64,000 nt of DNA from contig CANAXT010000001.1 in the NCBI GenBank assembly GCA_947365915.1, forward strand, positions 7,347 to 71,346. Direction: 5' to 3'. Numbering within the stretch: the stretch's first letter is position 1; every line of letters starts with the position of its first letter. Made by a program: the position numbers and the translations under genes. The notes beneath the pieces are model-generated. The model searched no databases, was not told where the DNA came from, and saw nothing but the letters and a program-made list of their open reading frames with translations. Source of the DNA: an uncultured Mycoplasmatota bacterium (GTDB lineage Bacteria; Bacillota_I; Bacilli_A; RF39; UBA660). Positions 18,935-64,000 of this stretch are shown here, in pieces.

Positions 18935-19753
18935 ATGTTCGAAAAAATAAAGAAAAAGAAAAAAACGTTTATTTTAATCATTATGATCATGAGTATGATT
19001 ACTTTACTATTTTCTATTTTTCAAATTATAAATTGGAAAAAAGATTCGAATAAAACAAAAAAGGAAACTGTTAAAATTGAAAAAATTACTGATATCAAGG
19101 AAAAAGAAGACTCTAGTAATACTGAAATTATTGGTCAAGATATTTCTAAAGATGATCCTTACTGGGATTACATCAAGATGAACTTAATGGATGTTAATTT
19201 TAAAGATTTAAAGAAAAAAAACAGTTCTGTTGCTGGATGGATCCAAGTGCTTGGAACAAATATCAATTATCCTTATGTTTGGACAACAGATAATGAGTAT
19301 TATTTGACACATTCATTTGATAAGTCTAAGAATTATGCTGGATGGGTATTTTTGGATTATCGAAATCATAAAAGTGAGTTGTCTAAAAATAATATTATTT
19401 ATGCTCATGGTAGAAAGGATCATACAATGTTTGGTTCTTTAAATAAAATTTTAACAAATGGTTGGTTCTTAAATTCTAAAAATCATGTAGTTCGTATGTC
19501 TACAGAAACAGAGAATACTTTATGGCAAGTGTTTAGTGTATATCGAATTCCAAATACTAGTGATTATATTCAAGTTAATTTTAATAATGATGATGAATTT
19601 TCAAAGTTTGGCTCGATGATATTATCAAGAAGTAAACACAATTTTAGTACTTCTATTGATGGTAATGATACGATTTTAACGCTTTCTACTTGTTATGATG
19701 ATTATGAAAAAGTAGTTTTACACGCAAAATTGATTAAAAGAGAAAAAAAATAA
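18935..19753 (+). CDS. srtB: class B sortase
   Basis: An N-terminal TM, then GWIQVLGTNINYPYV, YAHGRKDHTMFGSL (catalytic His), LTLSTCYD (TLxTC Cys) and a conserved Arg. An extended -10 TGaTATAAT promoter is present. Confidence 0.8.
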   Translation: MFEKIKKKKKTFILIIMIMSMITLLFSIFQIINWKKDSNKTKKETVKIEKITDIKEKEDSSNTEIIGQDISKDDPYWDYIKMNLMDVNFKDLKKKNSSVAGWIQVLGTNINYPYVWTTDNEYYLTHSFDKSKNYAGWVFLDYRNHKSELSKNNIIYAHGRKDHTMFGSLNKILTNGWFLNSKNHVVRMSTETENTLWQVFSVYRIPNTSDYIQVNFNNDDEFSKFGSMILSRSKHNFSTSIDGNDTILTLSTCYDDYEKVVLHAKLIKREKK

Positions 19754-19760
19754 CTTCATG

Positions 19761-21509
19761 TTATTTTTTTAATTCGATTTGTTCTTTTAGAAAAGATAAA
19801 AAGTCTTCTTTTTTTAGTATGATTGTTTCGTTGCTTCCATGTTTCCGATAACTGATGCTTCCTTCATCTCTTTCTTTGTCTCCTAAAATTAAGGTATATG
19901 GAATTTTTTTGGTTTGGCTTTCTCTCATCTTGTAGCTTAGTTTTTCATCTTTTGTGTCTAATTCTACTCGGATGTGGTTTTGTTCTAAATAGGTTTTGAT
20001 TTCTTCTGCATATGTTAAGTGGTACTCGTTATTAACTGGAATGATGTTTACTTGGGTTGGTGCTAGCCAAACTGGAAATACACCTTTGGTTTCTTCGATT
20101 AAGAATGCAATAAATCGATCTAATGATCCTAAAATGGCTCTATGAATGACTACTGGTCTTTTTTTGTTTCCTTCTTCATCAATATAAGTTAAGTCAAATC
20201 GTTCTGGAAGTTGATAGTCTAATTGAACTGTAGAAAGTGTGACATCATGACCAATTGCGCTTTTTACTTGAACATCTAGTTTTGGTCCATAAAATGCTGC
20301 TTCTCCTTCGGCTTCATAAAAGTCTGCATTTAATTCTTGTAATACTTCTCGAAGTTCGTTTTCGCTTTTTTCCCATAGTTCGTCATTTCCAAAGTATTTG
20401 TCTTTGTTTTCTTTGTCTCTTAGTGATAAGCGAAAGCGGTAATTTGTAAAGTCAAAATCTTTATATACTTCTAAAATTAAATCGACTACTGCTTTAAATT
20501 CTTCTTTGATTTGTTCTTCTGTACAAAAGATATGGGAATCATTTTGGGTAAATGCTCTTGTTCTTTCTATTCCACAAACGGCTCCACTTGCTTCATATCT
20601 AAAATCATTGGCAATTTCAGCAATACGAAGTGGTAAATCACGATAAGAATGAAGATTATTTTTAAACATCATCATGTGATGTGGGCAATTCATTGGTCTT
20701 AATACATAGGCTTCATTGTCTAGTTCCATAGCTGGAAACATGTCTTCTCTGTAATGGTCCCAATGTCCACTTGTTTTATATAAGTCAACACTTGCTAAAG
20801 ATGGTGTCATAACGTGTTTATATCCATGTTCATATTCTTTTTCAGTAATATAATCTACTAGTTTTTTACGAATTATAAATCCATTTGGAAGCCACATTGG
20901 AAGGCCTCTTCCAACAATATCTGAAAACATAAAGATGTCTAATTCTTTTCCGATTTTTCTGTGGTCTCTCATTTTTGCTTCTTCTAGCAATTTTAAATGT
21001 TCTTCTAAGTCTTCTGCTGTTTCAAAGCAGATTCCATAGATACGTTGTAACATCTTGTTTTTTGAGTCTCCTTTAAAGTAAGCGCCACTAAATTTTAGAA
21101 GTTTAAAGTGTTTTAGTTCTTTTACCGTTTCGACATGTGGTCCTCTACAAAGGTCTGTGAAGTCTCCTTGGGTATAACATGAGATATTTCCATCTTCCAT
21201 TCTAGAGATTAAATCTATTTTGTATGGATCATCATGAAACATGTCTAGTGCTTCTTTTTTAGAAATTTCATGACGAACAATTCGTTTTCCATCTTTGGCT
21301 ATTTTTTTCATTTCTTTTTCGATTTTTGGGATGTCTTCTTCTTTAATAACTTCATCTCCTAAATCGATATCATAATAAAATCCTTCTTCTATGACTGGTC
21401 CTACCCAGAATTTTGCATCTTTGTATAAGTGTTTTACAGCTTGTGCTAGAAGATGGGCACAGCTATGGTTTAATTTGTTTAATCTTTCATCATTTTTGAT
21501 ATTTTTCAT
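19761..21509 (-). CDS. thrS: threonine--tRNA ligase lacking the N-terminal TGS domain
   Basis: HSCAHLLAQAV (N2 editing-domain HxxxH), class II motifs and an anticodon-binding domain. The protein is 582 aa and begins directly at the N2 domain. Confidence 0.9.
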   Translation of the reverse strand: MKNIKNDERLNKLNHSCAHLLAQAVKHLYKDAKFWVGPVIEEGFYYDIDLGDEVIKEEDIPKIEKEMKKIAKDGKRIVRHEISKKEALDMFHDDPYKIDLISRMEDGNISCYTQGDFTDLCRGPHVETVKELKHFKLLKFSGAYFKGDSKNKMLQRIYGICFETAEDLEEHLKLLEEAKMRDHRKIGKELDIFMFSDIVGRGLPMWLPNGFIIRKKLVDYITEKEYEHGYKHVMTPSLASVDLYKTSGHWDHYREDMFPAMELDNEAYVLRPMNCPHHMMMFKNNLHSYRDLPLRIAEIANDFRYEASGAVCGIERTRAFTQNDSHIFCTEEQIKEEFKAVVDLILEVYKDFDFTNYRFRLSLRDKENKDKYFGNDELWEKSENELREVLQELNADFYEAEGEAAFYGPKLDVQVKSAIGHDVTLSTVQLDYQLPERFDLTYIDEEGNKKRPVVIHRAILGSLDRFIAFLIEETKGVFPVWLAPTQVNIIPVNNEYHLTYAEEIKTYLEQNHIRVELDTKDEKLSYKMRESQTKKIPYTLILGDKERDEGSISYRKHGSNETIILKKEDFLSFLKEQIELKK

Positions 21510-21511
21510 TT

Positions 21512-21910
21512 TTATTTCCTCTTTTCTATTATTTGGTTATCATATGGTGCTATTCTTTTACTTAATATTGTTTCGGCTTTTCCTCGAATTAAATCAAATT
21601 CTGCTTCTGTTGCTAGTCTCCATATTGCTTTAATGGGAAACAGAGCAAGTAATTCTTCTAGCGTTTCTAAATCGATTGGTCCTATATAATTTTGTAATTT
21701 TTTAGATAATGAATCACATTCATATTCTCTTAATCCTAGATCTGTTTCTTTTACTATCATTTTAGATAATTCTATGATGTCTAAATCGTATAATGTATAG
21801 GCAATTTCTGTTTTATAAGCTAGATATAATTCTTGACGTTCTTTTGTATCCATTTTTCTTGATTGTAATCTTAGCATATTAAAATTGACTCGTGGCTGAT
21901 ATTGTTTCAT
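21512..21910 (-). CDS. unknown 132-aa protein, T-box controlled and translationally coupled to thrS
   Basis: Strong RBS AAGGAGG immediately after the T-box terminator. The stop overlaps the thrS ATG (ATGA). It has no TGS-like sequence. Confidence 0.55.
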   Translation of the reverse strand: MKQYQPRVNFNMLRLQSRKMDTKERQELYLAYKTEIAYTLYDLDIIELSKMIVKETDLGLREYECDSLSKKLQNYIGPIDLETLEELLALFPIKAIWRLATEAEFDLIRGKAETILSKRIAPYDNQIIEKRK

Positions 21911-22168
21911 CTAAAGACCTCCTTATAAATGAAAAATCCCTGCATTTCTGCAAGGAGCGAATGACGCGGTACCATCCTTTTTTGTTCTTTTTTTGATAAC
22001 GGCTTTGCCGGAAATCCTTTTGGGATTCAGTTCATAGGGAGTAACTGTTTCTATTTCATGTTGGACTTCCACCATCTCCAACTCGCTTTGATGAAATTTT
22101 TTAGAAAAAGTCGTGTCCTAATCAAAACTTTTCTAGTTTTATTTTATCATTTTTTTATTTTTTGTCAA
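21911..22168 (-). promoter_or_regulatory. T-box riboswitch leader (Thr) with promoter
   Basis: T-box sequence AAGGAUGGUACCGCG, then terminator CUCCUUGCAG-AAA-UGCAGGGA followed by UUUUU. Promoter TTGACA-16-TAAAAT at 22141-22168. A possible ACA specifier sits in GAAACAG. Confidence 0.75.
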
Positions 22169-23123
22169 TCTTTTTTAAGACGCTATCTACAAAAAATTGG
22201 AATGTTTGTTTTCTCTTTTTTTTGTTTGGAATGAATGTCAAATATAAATCTGGGTCAATGAGTTCGATTTCCATGATTTGATATTCGTCTTTTATTTTGA
22301 CTGCATCAATCCGCATATATAGATGATTTTGGTATTCTTTTATGTTTCTAATTTGATGCGCTAAAGAGGATAGTTTGGGATCTATTTGTTCTAAATATGT
22401 GATGGTATTGGTTTGTGTGAAAATACTTGGATATCTAAGAACTGCATTTTTTAATTGTCCATTGATAAAAACAAGGGAATATTCTCCATTTTCAATTTCT
22501 TTGATATATGGTTGAATCATGATTCTACTGGTTACATTTTGTAATAGTGTTTCTATTTCGTCTATGGTTTTGCTGTTTTTTTTGCTTTTTCCTCCTAAAA
22601 GATAGGTATCATTTCCGCTTTCTGACATGGTTGGTTTTATTACAATACGAGAGTGTTTTTGTTTTTTTATGATTTCTTTTATGTTTTTTGGTTCTGTGAA
22701 AGTTGTTTCGATATGTTTGATGTTATATTTGTCTAAGAGTTTAAATTGTTTTTCTTTGTCCATGTTTTCTTTTATGATGTTGGCTGTGTTAAATAATGAG
22801 ATATGGTTTTTGATGATCATGTTTAACCAGTTTTCAAATTCTTTTTTGTAATGATGAAATCCCCAAATGGATTTGATAATCAGGGCATCATATTGTTTGA
22901 AGTCGATGTTTTGATCTTTCCAAGAGATGATCTCTGCTTTTATTTTAGAACGTTCAAACATGCATTTTAAGTAGACATCTTCTTTTTGTTTTCCTAGGTA
23001 TTCATCGGTTGAGACAATGGCAATTTTTTTTGTAAATTGTTTTTTATGAAGTGTTACATATAATTTGGTGTTCCATTTGAATAAATGAAATGGAATTCGT
23101 TTGATTCTTCTTTTGATATTCAT
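22155..23123 (-). CDS. ATP-grasp domain protein (RimK/YheC-like ligase)
   Basis: The pre-ATP-grasp region is KIAIVSTDEY...YDALIIKS. The central region is RIVIKPTMSESGNDTYLLG. Confidence 0.55.
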   Translation of the reverse strand: MNIKRRIKRIPFHLFKWNTKLYVTLHKKQFTKKIAIVSTDEYLGKQKEDVYLKCMFERSKIKAEIISWKDQNIDFKQYDALIIKSIWGFHHYKKEFENWLNMIIKNHISLFNTANIIKENMDKEKQFKLLDKYNIKHIETTFTEPKNIKEIIKKQKHSRIVIKPTMSESGNDTYLLGGKSKKNSKTIDEIETLLQNVTSRIMIQPYIKEIENGEYSLVFINGQLKNAVLRYPSIFTQTNTITYLEQIDPKLSSLAHQIRNIKEYQNHLYMRIDAVKIKDEYQIMEIELIDPDLYLTFIPNKKKRKQTFQFFVDSVLKKIDKK

Positions 23124-24679
23124 TTTAGATCCCTCACTGCTTGATTGATTAGAAACATGTTATGTATTAGGTCTTGTTTTTCTATGGCGAAGTTACATCG
23201 TGCTACAATTTCATCGGTTGGCCAAGACATGTTAAGACCCATTAAACAGTTAATTTTGGTTTTTTTATAAAGGTAAGTAACGAAGTCGGCATCATTTTCT
23301 ATGGTGATGTCTCCATCTGTTAATCCTTTTAATTCAGTGAAATCAATCATAGCAAAGAAACCAGATTCTGGGGTAATTTTGATTTTTGTTTTAGGAATTC
23401 CTTCTTTTAAGATTTCTAATTTTTTTGGGTCTTTGGTATATTGTTTTATGTCTTTCATAATTTTCTTTTGGTTTTCGTCTACTCCTGTTATTAATGCTTC
23501 TAACAGGTCTAATCGGTATTTATATTCTTTGATGGATTTTTTAAAGTATTTATGTGCTAGTTTATAACGCCTTTTGGTCCCATTAAAGGCTCCTGCTAGA
23601 GCTGCTGATTGTAACATCGAGATACAGTCTAGCGAGGAAGCAATTTGGTTTTCAATCCCTCTAATGATTGGAATGGGTGCAATGATGGCTCCTGCTCTTA
23701 GACTTGCTAAGCTATAGGATTTTGAAAGTCCTATAATGGTTATGGTGTTGTTAAAATATTTTGGAATTGTGGCTAAAGGCAGTGCTAGGTCATTTTGGTC
23801 AAATGTTAGGTCACGGTATACCATATCATCAATAACAAATACTCCTTTTTCTAAGCATACATCTCCCATTTTTAGTAAAATATCTTTGGTTTTATTGTTT
23901 AATACTTTCCCTGTTGGATTGTGTGGGTTAATGTTTAGGAAAGCGACTACTTTTGGGATATAGTCTAGTTTGTTTTCAAATTCTTTTTTTAGTTTTTGAT
24001 TGATTTCATCAATTCGTTTTGATAGTTGTTCTGGGTTGATATACCAGTCGTCTTCTTCTCTTAAGTTGATGATTTCGACTCTGGCATTAAATACTTCGGT
24101 TGAAACGGCAAAGATTCCATAGTTTGGTCCTGTCATTAGTATGACATCTTCTGGTCTTGCTATCGTATTTAACACTAGTGTATAGGCGTGCATGGTGGAA
24201 TATGCGAAGGCGATATTTTCAACTCCTAGTCCATCTTTTTGGTTTCGTTTGAATCCTTCTTTTTCTAGGTAATCTACGACATGTGCGCGGTAGTCTGTTT
24301 CTCCTATAATGGATGGCGGGTAGATATAAAGGTGTCTACTAAATAGGCTTCTCATCATATATTCTTTGCAAAGTGGGAATGGTTTTTTCCTTAGTGGATT
24401 CCCGTTACGGATGGAAGAATATTCATCGATTTTTGGTACTCCGTTATCGTCATATATGGATAAGTCTTTGTATAGTAGGTTATATCCATCTTCTATTTTT
24501 TTTACTTCTTCATAAAAGTTTTTTTGATCATTTCTTTTTCCTACATCACGAAATTCGGATAAGGTGGTTGGATTCCGTCTAGTATAATCTATGAGTGATG
24601 CAGAAAAGTTTTCTTTTTGGTAGTCACTATGTGTTACTGTTACGTCTGTTTTTAATATTTTTTGTATCCACTTTTTCAT
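23120..24679 (-). CDS. PLP-dependent aminotransferase, class I/II, with a ~130-aa N-terminal extension
   Basis: NPHNPTG motif and GLSKSYSLASLRAG (the PLP-binding Lys). The 5' end overlaps dnaI and the 3' end overlaps the ATP-grasp gene (ATGA). Confidence 0.75.
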   Translation of the reverse strand: MKKWIQKILKTDVTVTHSDYQKENFSASLIDYTRRNPTTLSEFRDVGKRNDQKNFYEEVKKIEDGYNLLYKDLSIYDDNGVPKIDEYSSIRNGNPLRKKPFPLCKEYMMRSLFSRHLYIYPPSIIGETDYRAHVVDYLEKEGFKRNQKDGLGVENIAFAYSTMHAYTLVLNTIARPEDVILMTGPNYGIFAVSTEVFNARVEIINLREEDDWYINPEQLSKRIDEINQKLKKEFENKLDYIPKVVAFLNINPHNPTGKVLNNKTKDILLKMGDVCLEKGVFVIDDMVYRDLTFDQNDLALPLATIPKYFNNTITIIGLSKSYSLASLRAGAIIAPIPIIRGIENQIASSLDCISMLQSAALAGAFNGTKRRYKLAHKYFKKSIKEYKYRLDLLEALITGVDENQKKIMKDIKQYTKDPKKLEILKEGIPKTKIKITPESGFFAMIDFTELKGLTDGDITIENDADFVTYLYKKTKINCLMGLNMSWPTDEIVARCNFAIEKQDLIHNMFLINQAVRDLK

Positions 24680-47639: not shown

Positions 47640-47850
47640 AATCACAATCCTATAAGGACGTGATTTGACGTGGTACCACCTTAATTTGTAGAGATCTCTA
47701 CCTTGAAACTGTAACGCGTTACCGTTATATGTTTGGCATATAAAACTCCAAGCTGAATTCATAAATGGATATGATCTATTTCCACCAACCATAGACTCTC
47801 TTTTCATATCTCTATTTATTACTACTTCTCTTCTTTGTTTTTCAAATTTA
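47640..47850 (-). promoter_or_regulatory. T-box riboswitch leader (Phe) with promoter
   Basis: T-box AAUUAAGGUGGUACCACG. Terminator AAUCACGUCCU-UAU-AGGAUUGUGAUU followed by U8. Specifier UUC-A. Promoter TTGTAA-17-TACAAT. Confidence 0.8.
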
Positions 47851-63754: not shown

Positions 63755-64000
63755 AACCACCTCCTTGAAATAAAAAAAGAGCAAAACATCCAAAAAGGAC
63801 GAATTGCTCGTGGTACCACCTTTATTTGTAATAATAGTTTATTACCTCTTATTGATAACGGATACTATCCGATTTAAAATCATCATTTGTAATTCATTAT
63901 TTTAATTTTGCTTATTTTCACCAGCCATAAGCTCTCTACAAATTATTTTAAAATAATTACTTTGAATGAATCACTTTTTAATTAACTGACTAGATTATAC
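63755..64000 (-). promoter_or_regulatory. T-box riboswitch leader (Tyr); the promoter -10 sits at the window edge
   Basis: Stem I AGAGAG. Specifier UAC-A in AAUUACAAAUG. T-box AAAGGUGGUACCACG. Terminator GAGCAA...UUGCUC followed by U7. A TATAAT lies at 63994-63999. Confidence 0.8.

What the first reader, a model, noticed from the sequence alone, without database searches (positions are those of the whole stretch)
21512..22168. T-box (Thr) leader controls a two-gene operon: an unknown 132-aa ORF translationally coupled to a TGS-less thrS
The T-box sequence (AAGGAUGGUACCGCG) and terminator are followed directly by a strong RBS and a 132-aa ORF. The ORF's stop overlaps the thrS ATG (ATGA). ThrRS here is 582 aa and begins at the N2 editing domain (HSCAHLLAQAV), lacking the ~60-aa N-terminal TGS domain found in Bacillus ThrRS. 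The upstream ORF does not resemble a TGS domain. It could be a new ThrRS-associated factor or a domain replacement.
Basis: seen in the sequence. Interest (0 to 1): 0.55.

Follow-up and report, generated by a model that had tools for sequence, protein, structure and literature searches.

The report
Orphan gene inside thrS T-box operon
A threonine-sensing T-box riboswitch here controls a real but unannotated 132-residue helical-repeat protein plus threonyl-tRNA synthetase, and related gut bacteria carry unrelated genes or nothing in that same spot, so the protein is not a stand-in for the synthetase's missing N-terminal domain.

Summary
On the minus strand there is a promoter, a Thr-specific T-box (specifier ACU), a terminator, a strong SD, a 132-aa ORF (21910-21512) and a 582-aa ThrRS with no TGS domain. 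The ORF stop and the thrS ATG are 2 nt apart (TAA-AA-ATG), not an ATGA overlap.

The ORF is a real gene. It has about a dozen homologues among billions of proteins, and all 11 examined abut a TGS-less thrS. dN/dS is 0.3-0.6, against about 0.05 for thrS. AlphaFold gives a confident (pLDDT 88) all-helical HEAT-like repeat fold with no specific structural or sequence relative.

The "TGS replacement" idea is not supported. All 80 related species have the same TGS-less ThrRS. In 15 of them the T-box abuts thrS directly. In most others the same slot holds unrelated genes: a second orphan family in 33 loci, plus dUTPase, RNase R, a nucleotidyltransferase and an MBL hydrolase.

ORF132 is best read as one lineage-specific occupant of a hypervariable T-box-to-thrS slot. 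It is co-induced by uncharged tRNAThr and is probably translationally coupled to thrS. Its biochemical role is unknown; a binding or adaptor protein is my inference.

The parts
22141..22168 (-). Sigma-70-type promoter: -35 TTGACA (22168-22163), 16-nt spacer, extended -10 TG-n-TAAAAT (22146-22141)
   Evidence: 11 of 12 matches, with TG. TTGAC-N17-TAnAAT is conserved at the same place in the relatives' leaders.
21950..22134 (-). T-box leader RNA (Stem I, short Stem II region, no Stem III, antiterminator)
   Evidence: cmscan RF00230: 72.9 bits, E 5.5e-16, below GA 93. A clade-specific nhmmer profile scores 150 bits over 22172-21923. RNAalifold on 49 leaders recovers Stem I and the antiterminator, and 24 of 29 pairs show compensatory changes.
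22040..22042 (-). Specifier codon ACU (Thr). It is followed by C here and by A in most relatives.
   Evidence: 'UUACU[A/C]CC' is invariant or nearly so in 49 leaders. The codon occupies the last positions of the 3' side of the specifier loop, before the closing CC:GG helix.
21965..21979 (-). Conserved T-box sequence AAGGAUGGUACCGCG, with UGGU (21974-21971) as the tRNA acceptor-end pairing site
   Evidence: Sequence. GGAUGGUACCG is invariant in 49 leaders.
21932..21956 (-). Intrinsic terminator (UCCUUGCAGAAAUGCAGGGA + UUUUU). Its 5' arm overlaps the 3' arm of the antiterminator.
   Evidence: 8-bp stem, 4 GC pairs, T-run. The overlap with the antiterminator strand GCUCCU is visible in the sequence.
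21917..21924 (-). Shine-Dalgarno AAGGAGGU for ORF132, 7 nt upstream of the ATG
   Evidence: Sequence.
21512..21910 (-). ORF132: 132-aa orphan protein predicted to be a HEAT-like helical repeat; first cistron of the operon
   Evidence: ORF listed. Homologues. All 11 members examined abut thrS. dN/dS is 0.28-0.63. AF2 gives pLDDT 88.2 and pTM 0.78 with 8 helices. No Pfam, NCBIfam, PHROG or PADLOC hit.
21517..21522 (-). thrS Shine-Dalgarno (AGAGGA), embedded in the ORF132 codons for -EKRK
   Evidence: Sequence. The GAAAAGAGGAAA motif and the -EKRK- tail are conserved across the family.
19761..21509 (-). thrS: 582-aa threonyl-tRNA synthetase with no N-terminal TGS (N1) domain. The N2 editing domain motifs HSCAH and CRGPH are present.
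   Evidence: Pfam and TIGR00418. The same N-terminus occurs in 80 related species.

Best explanation
ORF132 is a genuine, fast-evolving, lineage-restricted gene. It is the first cistron of a bicistronic ORF132-thrS operon controlled by a threonine-specific T-box riboswitch.

Shown:
- The promoter, T-box (specifier ACU), terminator/antiterminator, SD, ORF and thrS are arranged so that ORF132 lies between the terminator and thrS on one strand, with no significant promoter-like site inside it. It should therefore be transcribed mainly when uncharged tRNAThr stabilises the antiterminator.
- The ORF ends 2 nt before the thrS ATG and contains the thrS SD.
- The family is tiny and is always found at this locus.
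- The family is under weak-to-moderate purifying selection.
- It is predicted with high confidence to be a compact alpha-helical repeat (HEAT-like) domain.

Inferred:
- Ribosomes finishing ORF132 reinitiate or unmask thrS, giving translational coupling.
- The product is a non-enzymatic binding or adaptor protein made together with ThrRS during threonine limitation.

Evolutionary reading: ORF132 is one of at least eight unrelated occupants of a hypervariable slot between the thrS T-box terminator and the thrS start codon in this clade of uncultured gut Bacilli. The slot is flanked by two highly conserved sequences, the T-box and the thrS 5' end. This may allow cassette exchange by homologous recombination (my inference). 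ORF132 is not a replacement for the TGS domain, whose absence is clade-wide.
For: - Regulatory anatomy.
- Real gene: the open frame has chance probability 3.6e-6 and 0 of 200,000 shuffles stayed open. Homologues reach E 4.6e-27 and drop to 2e-4, and nine clusters were found by profile search. Conserved core residues include Y29, E55, E64, L68, Y75, G77-P78, W97 and A103.
- Selection: against L082, ORF132 has dN 0.36, dS 0.70, omega 0.52, while thrS has omega 0.05 at the same dS. Across all pairs, omega for the ORF is 0.28-0.63.
- Locus fidelity: 11 of 11 members lie directly 5' of a 578-590-aa TGS-less thrS, with a 2-nt gap or a 4-20-nt overlap.
- Slot variability across 76 loci: 15 empty, 7 short, 54 filled by a single ORF (two ORFs in L059). 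Families are unrelated by blastp and hhalign. Occupants include dUTPase, RNB, NTase and MBL.
- Occupant states are scattered over the ThrRS tree.
- The Phe and Tyr T-boxes in the same window have no such ORF.
Against: - There are no expression, ribosome-profiling or interaction data, so co-transcription and coupling are inferred from sequence alone.
- The T-box scores below Rfam's gathering threshold. The base after the specifier is C rather than the usual purine in this genome.
- The AF2 model rests on only 11 sequences; the single-sequence model had pLDDT 42.
- HEAT-like similarity is generic and says little about function.
- Strict thrS linkage and the high evolutionary rate fit a ThrRS-interacting or conflict-related role as well as a passenger role.
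- The ThrRS tree is a single-gene NJ tree, so the number of independent replacements is uncertain.
Confidence: 0.62

Rival explanations
1. ThrRS-associated factor or functional replacement of the TGS (N1) domain. ORF132 binds ThrRS or tRNAThr in trans and supplies what the missing N-terminal domain did.
For: - It is always encoded immediately 5' of a TGS-less thrS and is co-regulated with it.
- Tight or overlapping junctions imply roughly matched synthesis.
- Helical-repeat scaffolds typically bind proteins or RNA.
Against: - The same TGS-less ThrRS (69-92% identical) occurs with an empty slot in 15 species and with unrelated occupants in more than 50.
- ORF132-bearing ThrRSs do not form one clade.
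- The ORF evolves about 8-fold faster in dN than ThrRS.
- The predicted fold is all-alpha, not the beta-grasp of TGS.
- TGS is absent from most Mycoplasma genomes surveyed, which must still encode ThrRS, so TGS-less ThrRS appears common there with no such partner described (PMC3155973; the ThrRS implication is my inference).
- One member (L037) is split into 61- and 65-aa pieces next to an intact thrS.
Confidence: 0.13
2. Charging-responsive regulator, analogous in logic to B. subtilis anti-TRAP (rtpA). This would be a small protein made only when a given tRNA is uncharged, which then acts on another target such as threonine biosynthesis or transport, or the stringent response.
For: - T-box control of a small non-enzymatic protein has a precedent: rtpA, cited in PMC2494555 (Table 2 and its reference B34).
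- ORF132 is induced by uncharged tRNAThr by design.
- It has a scaffold-like fold.
Against: - No sequence or structural similarity to anti-TRAP or to any regulator.
- The family is confined to a few species, and sister species lack it.
- No candidate target was identified.
Confidence: 0.1
3. Cis-acting spacer ORF. What matters is that the long leader between terminator and thrS is translated, for mRNA protection and delivery of ribosomes to the thrS start. The peptide itself is largely dispensable.
For: - Unrelated ORFs in relatives all fill the slot from just after the terminator to the thrS ATG and carry the thrS SD in their last codons.
- dN/dS is high compared with neighbouring genes.
Against: - omega is clearly below 1 (0.28-0.63), with invariant core residues.
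- A confident compact fold is predicted.
- Some occupants are bona fide enzymes.
- Fifteen species manage with no ORF at all.
Confidence: 0.1
4. Chance ORF or annotation artefact; not a gene.
For: No Pfam, NCBIfam, PHROG or PADLOC hit. The first k-mer search found only the protein itself.
Against: - The open frame has P about 3.6e-6 in this AT-rich sequence.
- There is a strong SD at the correct spacing.
- Homologues at 33-65% identity in at least 11 genomes keep the frame.
- omega is below 1.
Confidence: 0.01

Closest known systems
Bacillus subtilis thrS/thrZ T-box leaders (tRNAThr-dependent transcription antitermination)
   Same: Sigma-A promoter, Stem I with a Thr specifier codon, the conserved T-box sequence with UGGN, a mutually exclusive antiterminator and terminator, and thrS as the regulated synthetase. 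PMC2494555 reports thrS T-box control in at least 29 of 34 Firmicutes.
   Different: Here Stem III is missing, so the Rfam score falls below gathering. A 132-codon ORF sits between terminator and thrS. In B. subtilis the leader runs straight into thrS, and that ThrRS carries a TGS domain (both from my own knowledge).
T-box operons in which the synthetase is the second gene (for example cysE-cysS, or asnS as second gene)
   Same: The aaRS is not the first cistron after the T-box. PMC2494555 section 17 notes that cysS and asnS are often the second gene of a T-box-regulated operon.
   Different: In those operons the first gene belongs to the same amino-acid pathway (cysE makes the cysteine precursor; from my own knowledge). 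Here the first gene is an orphan with no pathway link, and the occupant differs between sister species.
rtpA (anti-TRAP), a small regulatory protein under a Trp T-box in B. subtilis
   Same: A small non-enzymatic protein whose synthesis reports tRNA charging through a T-box (PMC2494555, Table 2 and reference B34).
   Different: There is no sequence or fold similarity. Anti-TRAP is a 53-aa zinc-binding oligomer (from my own knowledge). No target is known for ORF132, and ORF132 shares its operon with the synthetase.
HEAT/ARM-like alpha-helical repeat proteins (for example E. coli YibA 1oyz, designed DHR14, eukaryotic HEAT solenoids)
   Different: No Pfam HEAT-family hit. Foldseek E-values are all 0.18 or higher. 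The protein is only 132 aa, and the resemblance is to a generic fold class rather than a family.
TGS-less ThrRS of Mollicutes
   Same: The ThrRS starts at the N2 editing domain and is about 560-590 aa. TGS is reported absent from most Mycoplasma genomes (PMC3155973). The Mycoplasma ThrRS lengths are from my own knowledge.
   Different: This clade is uncultured gut Bacilli (Ca. Onthousia, CAG-417-like MAGs) with sporulation genes nearby in some loci. The editing motifs HxxxH and CxxxH are intact here.

Membership tests
T-box leader (Rfam RF00230) | Stem I with a specifier loop whose codon matches the downstream synthetase | tested here: met
   ACU (Thr) at 22042-22040 sits at the 3' end of the specifier loop. 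It is invariant in the aligned leaders except for one ACC (also Thr). Stem I is supported by compensatory changes.
T-box leader (Rfam RF00230) | Conserved T-box sequence with a UGGN bulge, inside an antiterminator that competes with an intrinsic terminator | tested here: met
   AAGGAUGGUACCGCG at 21979-21965. Terminator at 21956-21937 plus a U-run, overlapping the antiterminator 3' strand.
T-box leader (Rfam RF00230) | Score at or above Rfam's gathering threshold (93 bits) | tested here: not met
   72.9 bits, E 5.5e-16. The Stem III segment is deleted in the alignment. The other two T-boxes in the window pass, at 116 and 97 bits.
T-box leader (Rfam RF00230) | Antitermination dependent on uncharged tRNA | not testable with these tools
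   Needs in vitro transcription with tRNAThr, or in vivo reporters.
Threonyl-tRNA synthetase (TIGR00418) | Equivalog HMM above cutoff; class II core, anticodon-binding domain and SAD editing domain | tested here: met
   722.7 bits against a cutoff of 383.65. PF07973, PF00587 and PF03129 are present. The HSCAH and CRGPH motifs are visible in the sequence.
Canonical bacterial ThrRS architecture (N1-TGS + N2 + core + ABD) | N-terminal TGS domain | tested here: not met
   No TGS hit at E up to 0.1. The protein starts 14 residues before HSCAH. In-frame upstream extension is 0-45 codons in 80 relatives. There is no TGS-like segment in the window.
TGS domain (as a candidate identity for ORF132) | Beta-grasp fold of about 60 aa; Pfam TGS match | tested here: not met
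   ORF132 is predicted all-alpha with 8 helices. No member of the family hits any Pfam family at a significant level.
HEAT / HEAT-like repeat families (Pfam HEAT, HEAT_2, HEAT_PBS) | Sequence-profile match to a HEAT-type repeat | tested here: not met
   No such hit for any of the 11 members at E up to 1. The PDB profile search found nothing significant.
HEAT / HEAT-like repeat families (Pfam HEAT, HEAT_2, HEAT_PBS) | Alpha-solenoid of stacked antiparallel helix pairs | tested here: inconclusive
Phage or defence-system proteins | Match to PHROGs, PADLOC or BFVD | tested here: not met
   No PHROG hit. One isolated weak PADLOC hit (DrmD, E 0.0017) in 1 of 11 members. BFVD best E is 0.1.

The most novel reading that the evidence does not exclude
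The segment between the thrS T-box terminator and the thrS start codon may be a recurrent gene-capture or gene-birth site in this clade. Several of its orphan occupants (ORF132, F0, F2/F3 and others) may be non-homologous but functionally analogous proteins made only when tRNAThr is uncharged. Examples would be ThrRS or tRNAThr modulators, or starvation-response effectors. On that reading ORF132 would define a new class of charging-responsive accessory proteins.
Probability: 0.15. Interest if true: 0.7.

Novelty: new variant of a known kind. Interest (0 to 1): 0.42.

Why it matters
T-box riboswitches are normally read as direct switches for a synthetase, a biosynthetic gene or a transporter. 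Here a synthetase leader has repeatedly acquired, swapped and lost unrelated genes between the riboswitch and the gene it controls. The acquisitions include at least two clade-specific orphan protein families with no known homologue.

This has three consequences:
- It cautions against inferring function from "T-box plus neighbour" guilt by association.
- It shows that loss of the TGS domain in ThrRS needs no encoded partner.
- It provides a defined natural system for asking how new genes gain expression by lodging in an essential, conditionally read-through leader.

If ORF132 or F0 do act on ThrRS or tRNAThr, they would be new accessory factors of an essential enzyme in abundant but uncultured gut bacteria.

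Tried and rejected
- The k-mer-indexed homologue search with the single protein found only the protein itself. The exhaustive HMMER search and a profile search were needed to find relatives.
- Single-sequence AF2 was uninformative, with pLDDT 42.
- The afdb50 fold library was unavailable, so the AlphaFold database was not searched.
- Homology between ORF132 and other slot occupants was tested and rejected (hhalign probability below 1%).
- A paralogue of ORF132 or a relic TGS segment in the window was sought and not found.
- Remnants of ORF132 or F0 in short or empty slots were sought and not found.
- I looked for a target-site duplication, or reuse of the thrS 5' codons at the ORF start. The window's ATGAAACAATATCA resembles the thrS ATGAAAAATATCA, but this is not conserved in relatives, so I rejected it as chance in AT-rich DNA.
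- Phage or defence origin: no support.
- YtxC is the gene upstream of thrS in B. subtilis (from my own knowledge). No Pfam family hit ORF132.
- Association with the upstream DcsG-like ATP-grasp and aminotransferase pair is present only in the window, L082 and L002, and not in other ORF132 loci.

Full report
**1. What is in the sequence**

All features lie on the minus strand.
- A near-consensus sigma-70 promoter, TTGACA-16-TG-TAAAAT, spans 22168-22141.
- A T-box leader follows. Rfam RF00230 matches 22134-21950 at 72.9 bits and E 5.5e-16. This is below the curated gathering score of 93 because the Stem III segment is absent. The two other T-boxes in the window pass that threshold.
- An 8-bp GC-containing hairpin (21956-21937) with a U-run overlaps the 3' strand of the antiterminator.
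- After the U-run comes AAGGAGGU, then seven nucleotides, then the ATG at 21910. The ORF runs 132 codons to TAA at 21514-21512.
- The thrS ATG is at 21509. The thrS SD (AGAGGA) is encoded by the last ORF codons.

**2. The synthetase**

- thrS encodes 582 aa with SAD, class-II core and anticodon-binding domains, and no TGS domain.
- It scores 722.7 bits on TIGR00418.
- It begins 14 residues before the HSCAH editing motif.

**3. Threonine specificity and reality of the T-box**

- I aligned 49 thrS leaders from related genomes. UUACU[A/C]CC is invariant or nearly so.
- RNAalifold recovers Stem I and the antiterminator. Of 29 pairs, 24 show compensatory changes. ACU falls on the last three positions of the 3' side of the specifier loop, followed by one base and the closing helix.
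- That following base is A in most genomes and C in this one.
- By the same register, the window's other T-boxes read UUC and UAC. They run directly into pheS and tyrS with no intervening ORF.

**4. Is ORF132 a gene?**

- An open frame of 132 codons has probability about 3.6e-6 at this base composition. None of 200,000 shuffles stayed open.
- The word-indexed search found only the protein itself.
- An exhaustive HMMER scan of 1.8 billion representative proteins found nine relatives of 89-158 aa, with E from 4.6e-27 to 2e-4, plus one marginal hit.
- A profile search of 5.8 billion clusters found nine clusters in total. The family is real but very small.
- The alignment shows an invariant or nearly invariant core: Y29, L48, E55, E64, L68, L72, Y75, G77-P78, L84, W97, L99, A103 and A112. 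The tail is basic, -EKRK.
- Against the closest relative with DNA in hand (L082, ThrRS 92% identical), Nei-Gojobori estimates for ORF132 are dN 0.36, dS 0.70 and omega 0.52.
- At similar dS, omega is 0.05 for thrS, 0.11 for dnaI, 0.07 for the aminotransferase and 0.17 for the ATP-grasp gene.
- Over 21 pairs, omega for the ORF is 0.28-0.63.
- The protein is therefore under selection but evolves roughly eight times faster than ThrRS at non-synonymous sites.

**5. Fold**

- With the 11-sequence alignment, AlphaFold2 gives pLDDT 88.2 and pTM 0.78. The model has eight helices (10-18, 22-31, 33-42, 45-54, 58-72, 81-90, 93-102, 106-131).
- Foldseek against the PDB and against BFVD gives nothing below E 0.1.
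- Nothing significant came from Pfam on all 11 members, NCBIfam, PHROGs, PADLOC or a PDB profile search.
- The fold class suggests a binding scaffold. It does not identify a function.

**6. Genomic context of the family**

- Every member whose context I could read lies immediately 5' of a 578-590-aa TGS-less thrS and downstream of the T-box.
- This covers the window, L002, L029 and L037, P0002, P0004, P0005 and P0006, and P0007, P0011 and P0013.
- Junctions range from a 2-nt gap to a 20-nt overlap.
- In L037 the ORF is broken into 61- and 65-aa pieces next to an intact thrS. This is either a pseudogene or a MAG assembly error.

**7.

- A scan of one genome per species with ThrRS returned 80 loci with 69-88% identical ThrRS. 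These are uncultured gut Bacilli, including Ca. Onthousia, "Clostridium sp. CAG:417" and "Mycoplasma sp. CAG:956".
- All 80 begin at the same N-terminus, and the in-frame extension upstream is only 0-45 codons. TGS-lessness is therefore clade-wide.
- A clade-specific T-box profile found a Thr T-box upstream of thrS in 76 loci. The distance from T-box to thrS ATG varies widely:

| Distance (nt) | Loci |
|---|---|
| 9-29 (empty) | 15 |
| 61-165 | 7 |
| 213-265 | 10 |
| 380-667 | 38 |
| 794-2332 | 6 |

- In every filled case but one (L059, two ORFs), a single ORF runs from just after the terminator to the thrS start.
- Clustering gives the following occupants:
  - family F0 in 33 loci, with the related F6 in 2 more;
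  - the ORF132 family in only 3 of the 80 species loci (L002, L029, L037), plus the window and the metagenomic contigs;
  - two small families, F2 and F3;
  - several singletons.
- hhalign gives below 1% probability that ORF132 is related to F0, F2, F3, F6 or F8.
- Pfam identifies some occupants as ordinary enzymes: dUTPase (L004, L030), an RNB exoribonuclease of 771 aa (L016, L018), a nucleotidyltransferase (L075) and an MBL-fold protein (L077).
- F0 is another unnamed, clade-restricted family of 16 clusters. It has a conserved N-terminal domain and strong SDs.
- On a ThrRS NJ tree, ORF132 occurs in three separate places, dUTPase in two, RNB is nested within an F0 clade, and empty slots are scattered.

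**8. Interpretation**

- The regulatory and coding anatomy is solid. ORF132 is made when the Thr T-box reads through, and its translation ends on top of the thrS ribosome-binding site.
- The proposal that it compensates for the missing TGS domain fails the co-occurrence test. The same ThrRS architecture is found with no ORF, with unrelated orphan ORFs and with housekeeping enzymes in the slot.
- Strict linkage of ORF132 to thrS is what orthologues at one locus show. It adds no independent functional evidence.
- The most economical reading is that the slot is a hypervariable insertion and replacement site.
- I infer that exchange is helped by the two highly conserved flanks, the T-box and the thrS 5' end, and by guaranteed expression. 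On this reading ORF132 is one lineage-specific occupant, with a scaffold-like fold and an unknown partner.
- A ThrRS/tRNAThr-directed role, or an anti-TRAP-like regulatory role, remains possible but untested.
- A purely cis-acting "spacer ORF" role is disfavoured by omega below 1 and by the confident fold.

**9. Relation to the literature**

- thrS is T-box-regulated in nearly all Firmicutes.
- About 8% of T-boxes precede genes of unknown or unrelated function.
- Synthetases such as cysS and asnS are often the second gene of a T-box operon.
- rtpA is a small regulatory protein under a T-box. All four points come from PMC2494555.
- TGS domains are absent from most Mycoplasma genomes surveyed (PMC3155973). 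This implies that TGS-less ThrRS is not unusual in reduced Bacilli-derived lineages.
- I found no description of ORF132, of F0, or of a variable gene slot inside the thrS leader. That is absence in the searchable library only.

**10. Verdict**

- The finding is real, with one detail misread.
- The functional interpretation is not supported in its strong form.
- The operon is a new variant of a known kind.
- The slot variability is the most interesting by-product.

Noticed in passing
L002-L081 (thrS loci of related species), region between T-box end and thrS ATG; equivalent to window 21510-21935: The T-box-to-thrS slot is hypervariable across about 76 species. It is empty in 15 and holds unrelated genes in the rest: orphan families F0, F2/F3, F7 and F8, plus dUTPase, RNB/RNase R, a nucleotidyltransferase and an MBL-fold protein. 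Each filled slot is occupied exactly up to the thrS start. Occupant states are scattered on the ThrRS tree.
   Followed up: yes
e.g. L012:5507-5998, L023:5478-5999, L071:5322-5966: Family F0 is a second unannotated, clade-restricted protein family of 108-326 aa. Its conserved N-terminal domain follows the pattern F..Y.G...L(T/S)H...G..(I/L)LV.D....Y.NP, followed by a variable K/R/E-rich tail. It occupies the thrS slot in 33 loci. It has no Pfam hit, and only 16 clusters exist in 5.8 billion proteins.
   Followed up: partly
window 22155-24679 (-): A pair of overlapping genes sits between dnaI and the thrS promoter. One is a 519-aa class I/II PLP aminotransferase. The other is a 322-aa ATP-grasp enzyme whose best NCBIfam hit is D-cycloserine synthetase DcsG (92.7 bits, far below the cutoff of 360); a relative shows PF27100 DcsG_N. 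The pair is conserved in L082 and L002 but absent from other relatives. It may be a small amino-acid ligase or antimetabolite module.
   Followed up: no
window 47651-47844 (-) and 63792-63983 (-): There are two further T-box leaders above Rfam's gathering score. One has specifier UUC and leads directly into pheS-pheT (47635-44187). The other has specifier UAC and lies 122 nt before tyrS (63669-62431). Neither has an intervening ORF.
   Followed up: partly
L037:434-847: The ORF132 homologue is split into 61-aa and 65-aa ORFs next to an intact thrS. This is either a pseudogene or a MAG assembly error.
   Followed up: no
window 21923-22081 (-); also L085:3538-3696, L089:1-159: A 52-aa ORF lies within the T-box leader in the window, where it is clearly a spurious frame. 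A 52-residue gene is called just upstream of the ORF132 homologue on several public contigs. I did not check whether that call is the equivalent leader frame.
   Followed up: no
L088:6249-8088, L091, L093, L095 (downstream of thrS): In several ORF132-bearing relatives thrS is followed by SpoIIIAH, a GerE-type regulator and a Germane-domain protein. At least part of this 'Tenericutes/Mycoplasma'-labelled clade therefore retains sporulation and germination genes.
   Followed up: no
window 18935-19753 (+): A 272-aa ORF lies convergent with thrS. It has an N-terminal membrane anchor and a C-terminal TLSTC motif that looks sortase-like to me. I did not check this against any library.
   Followed up: no
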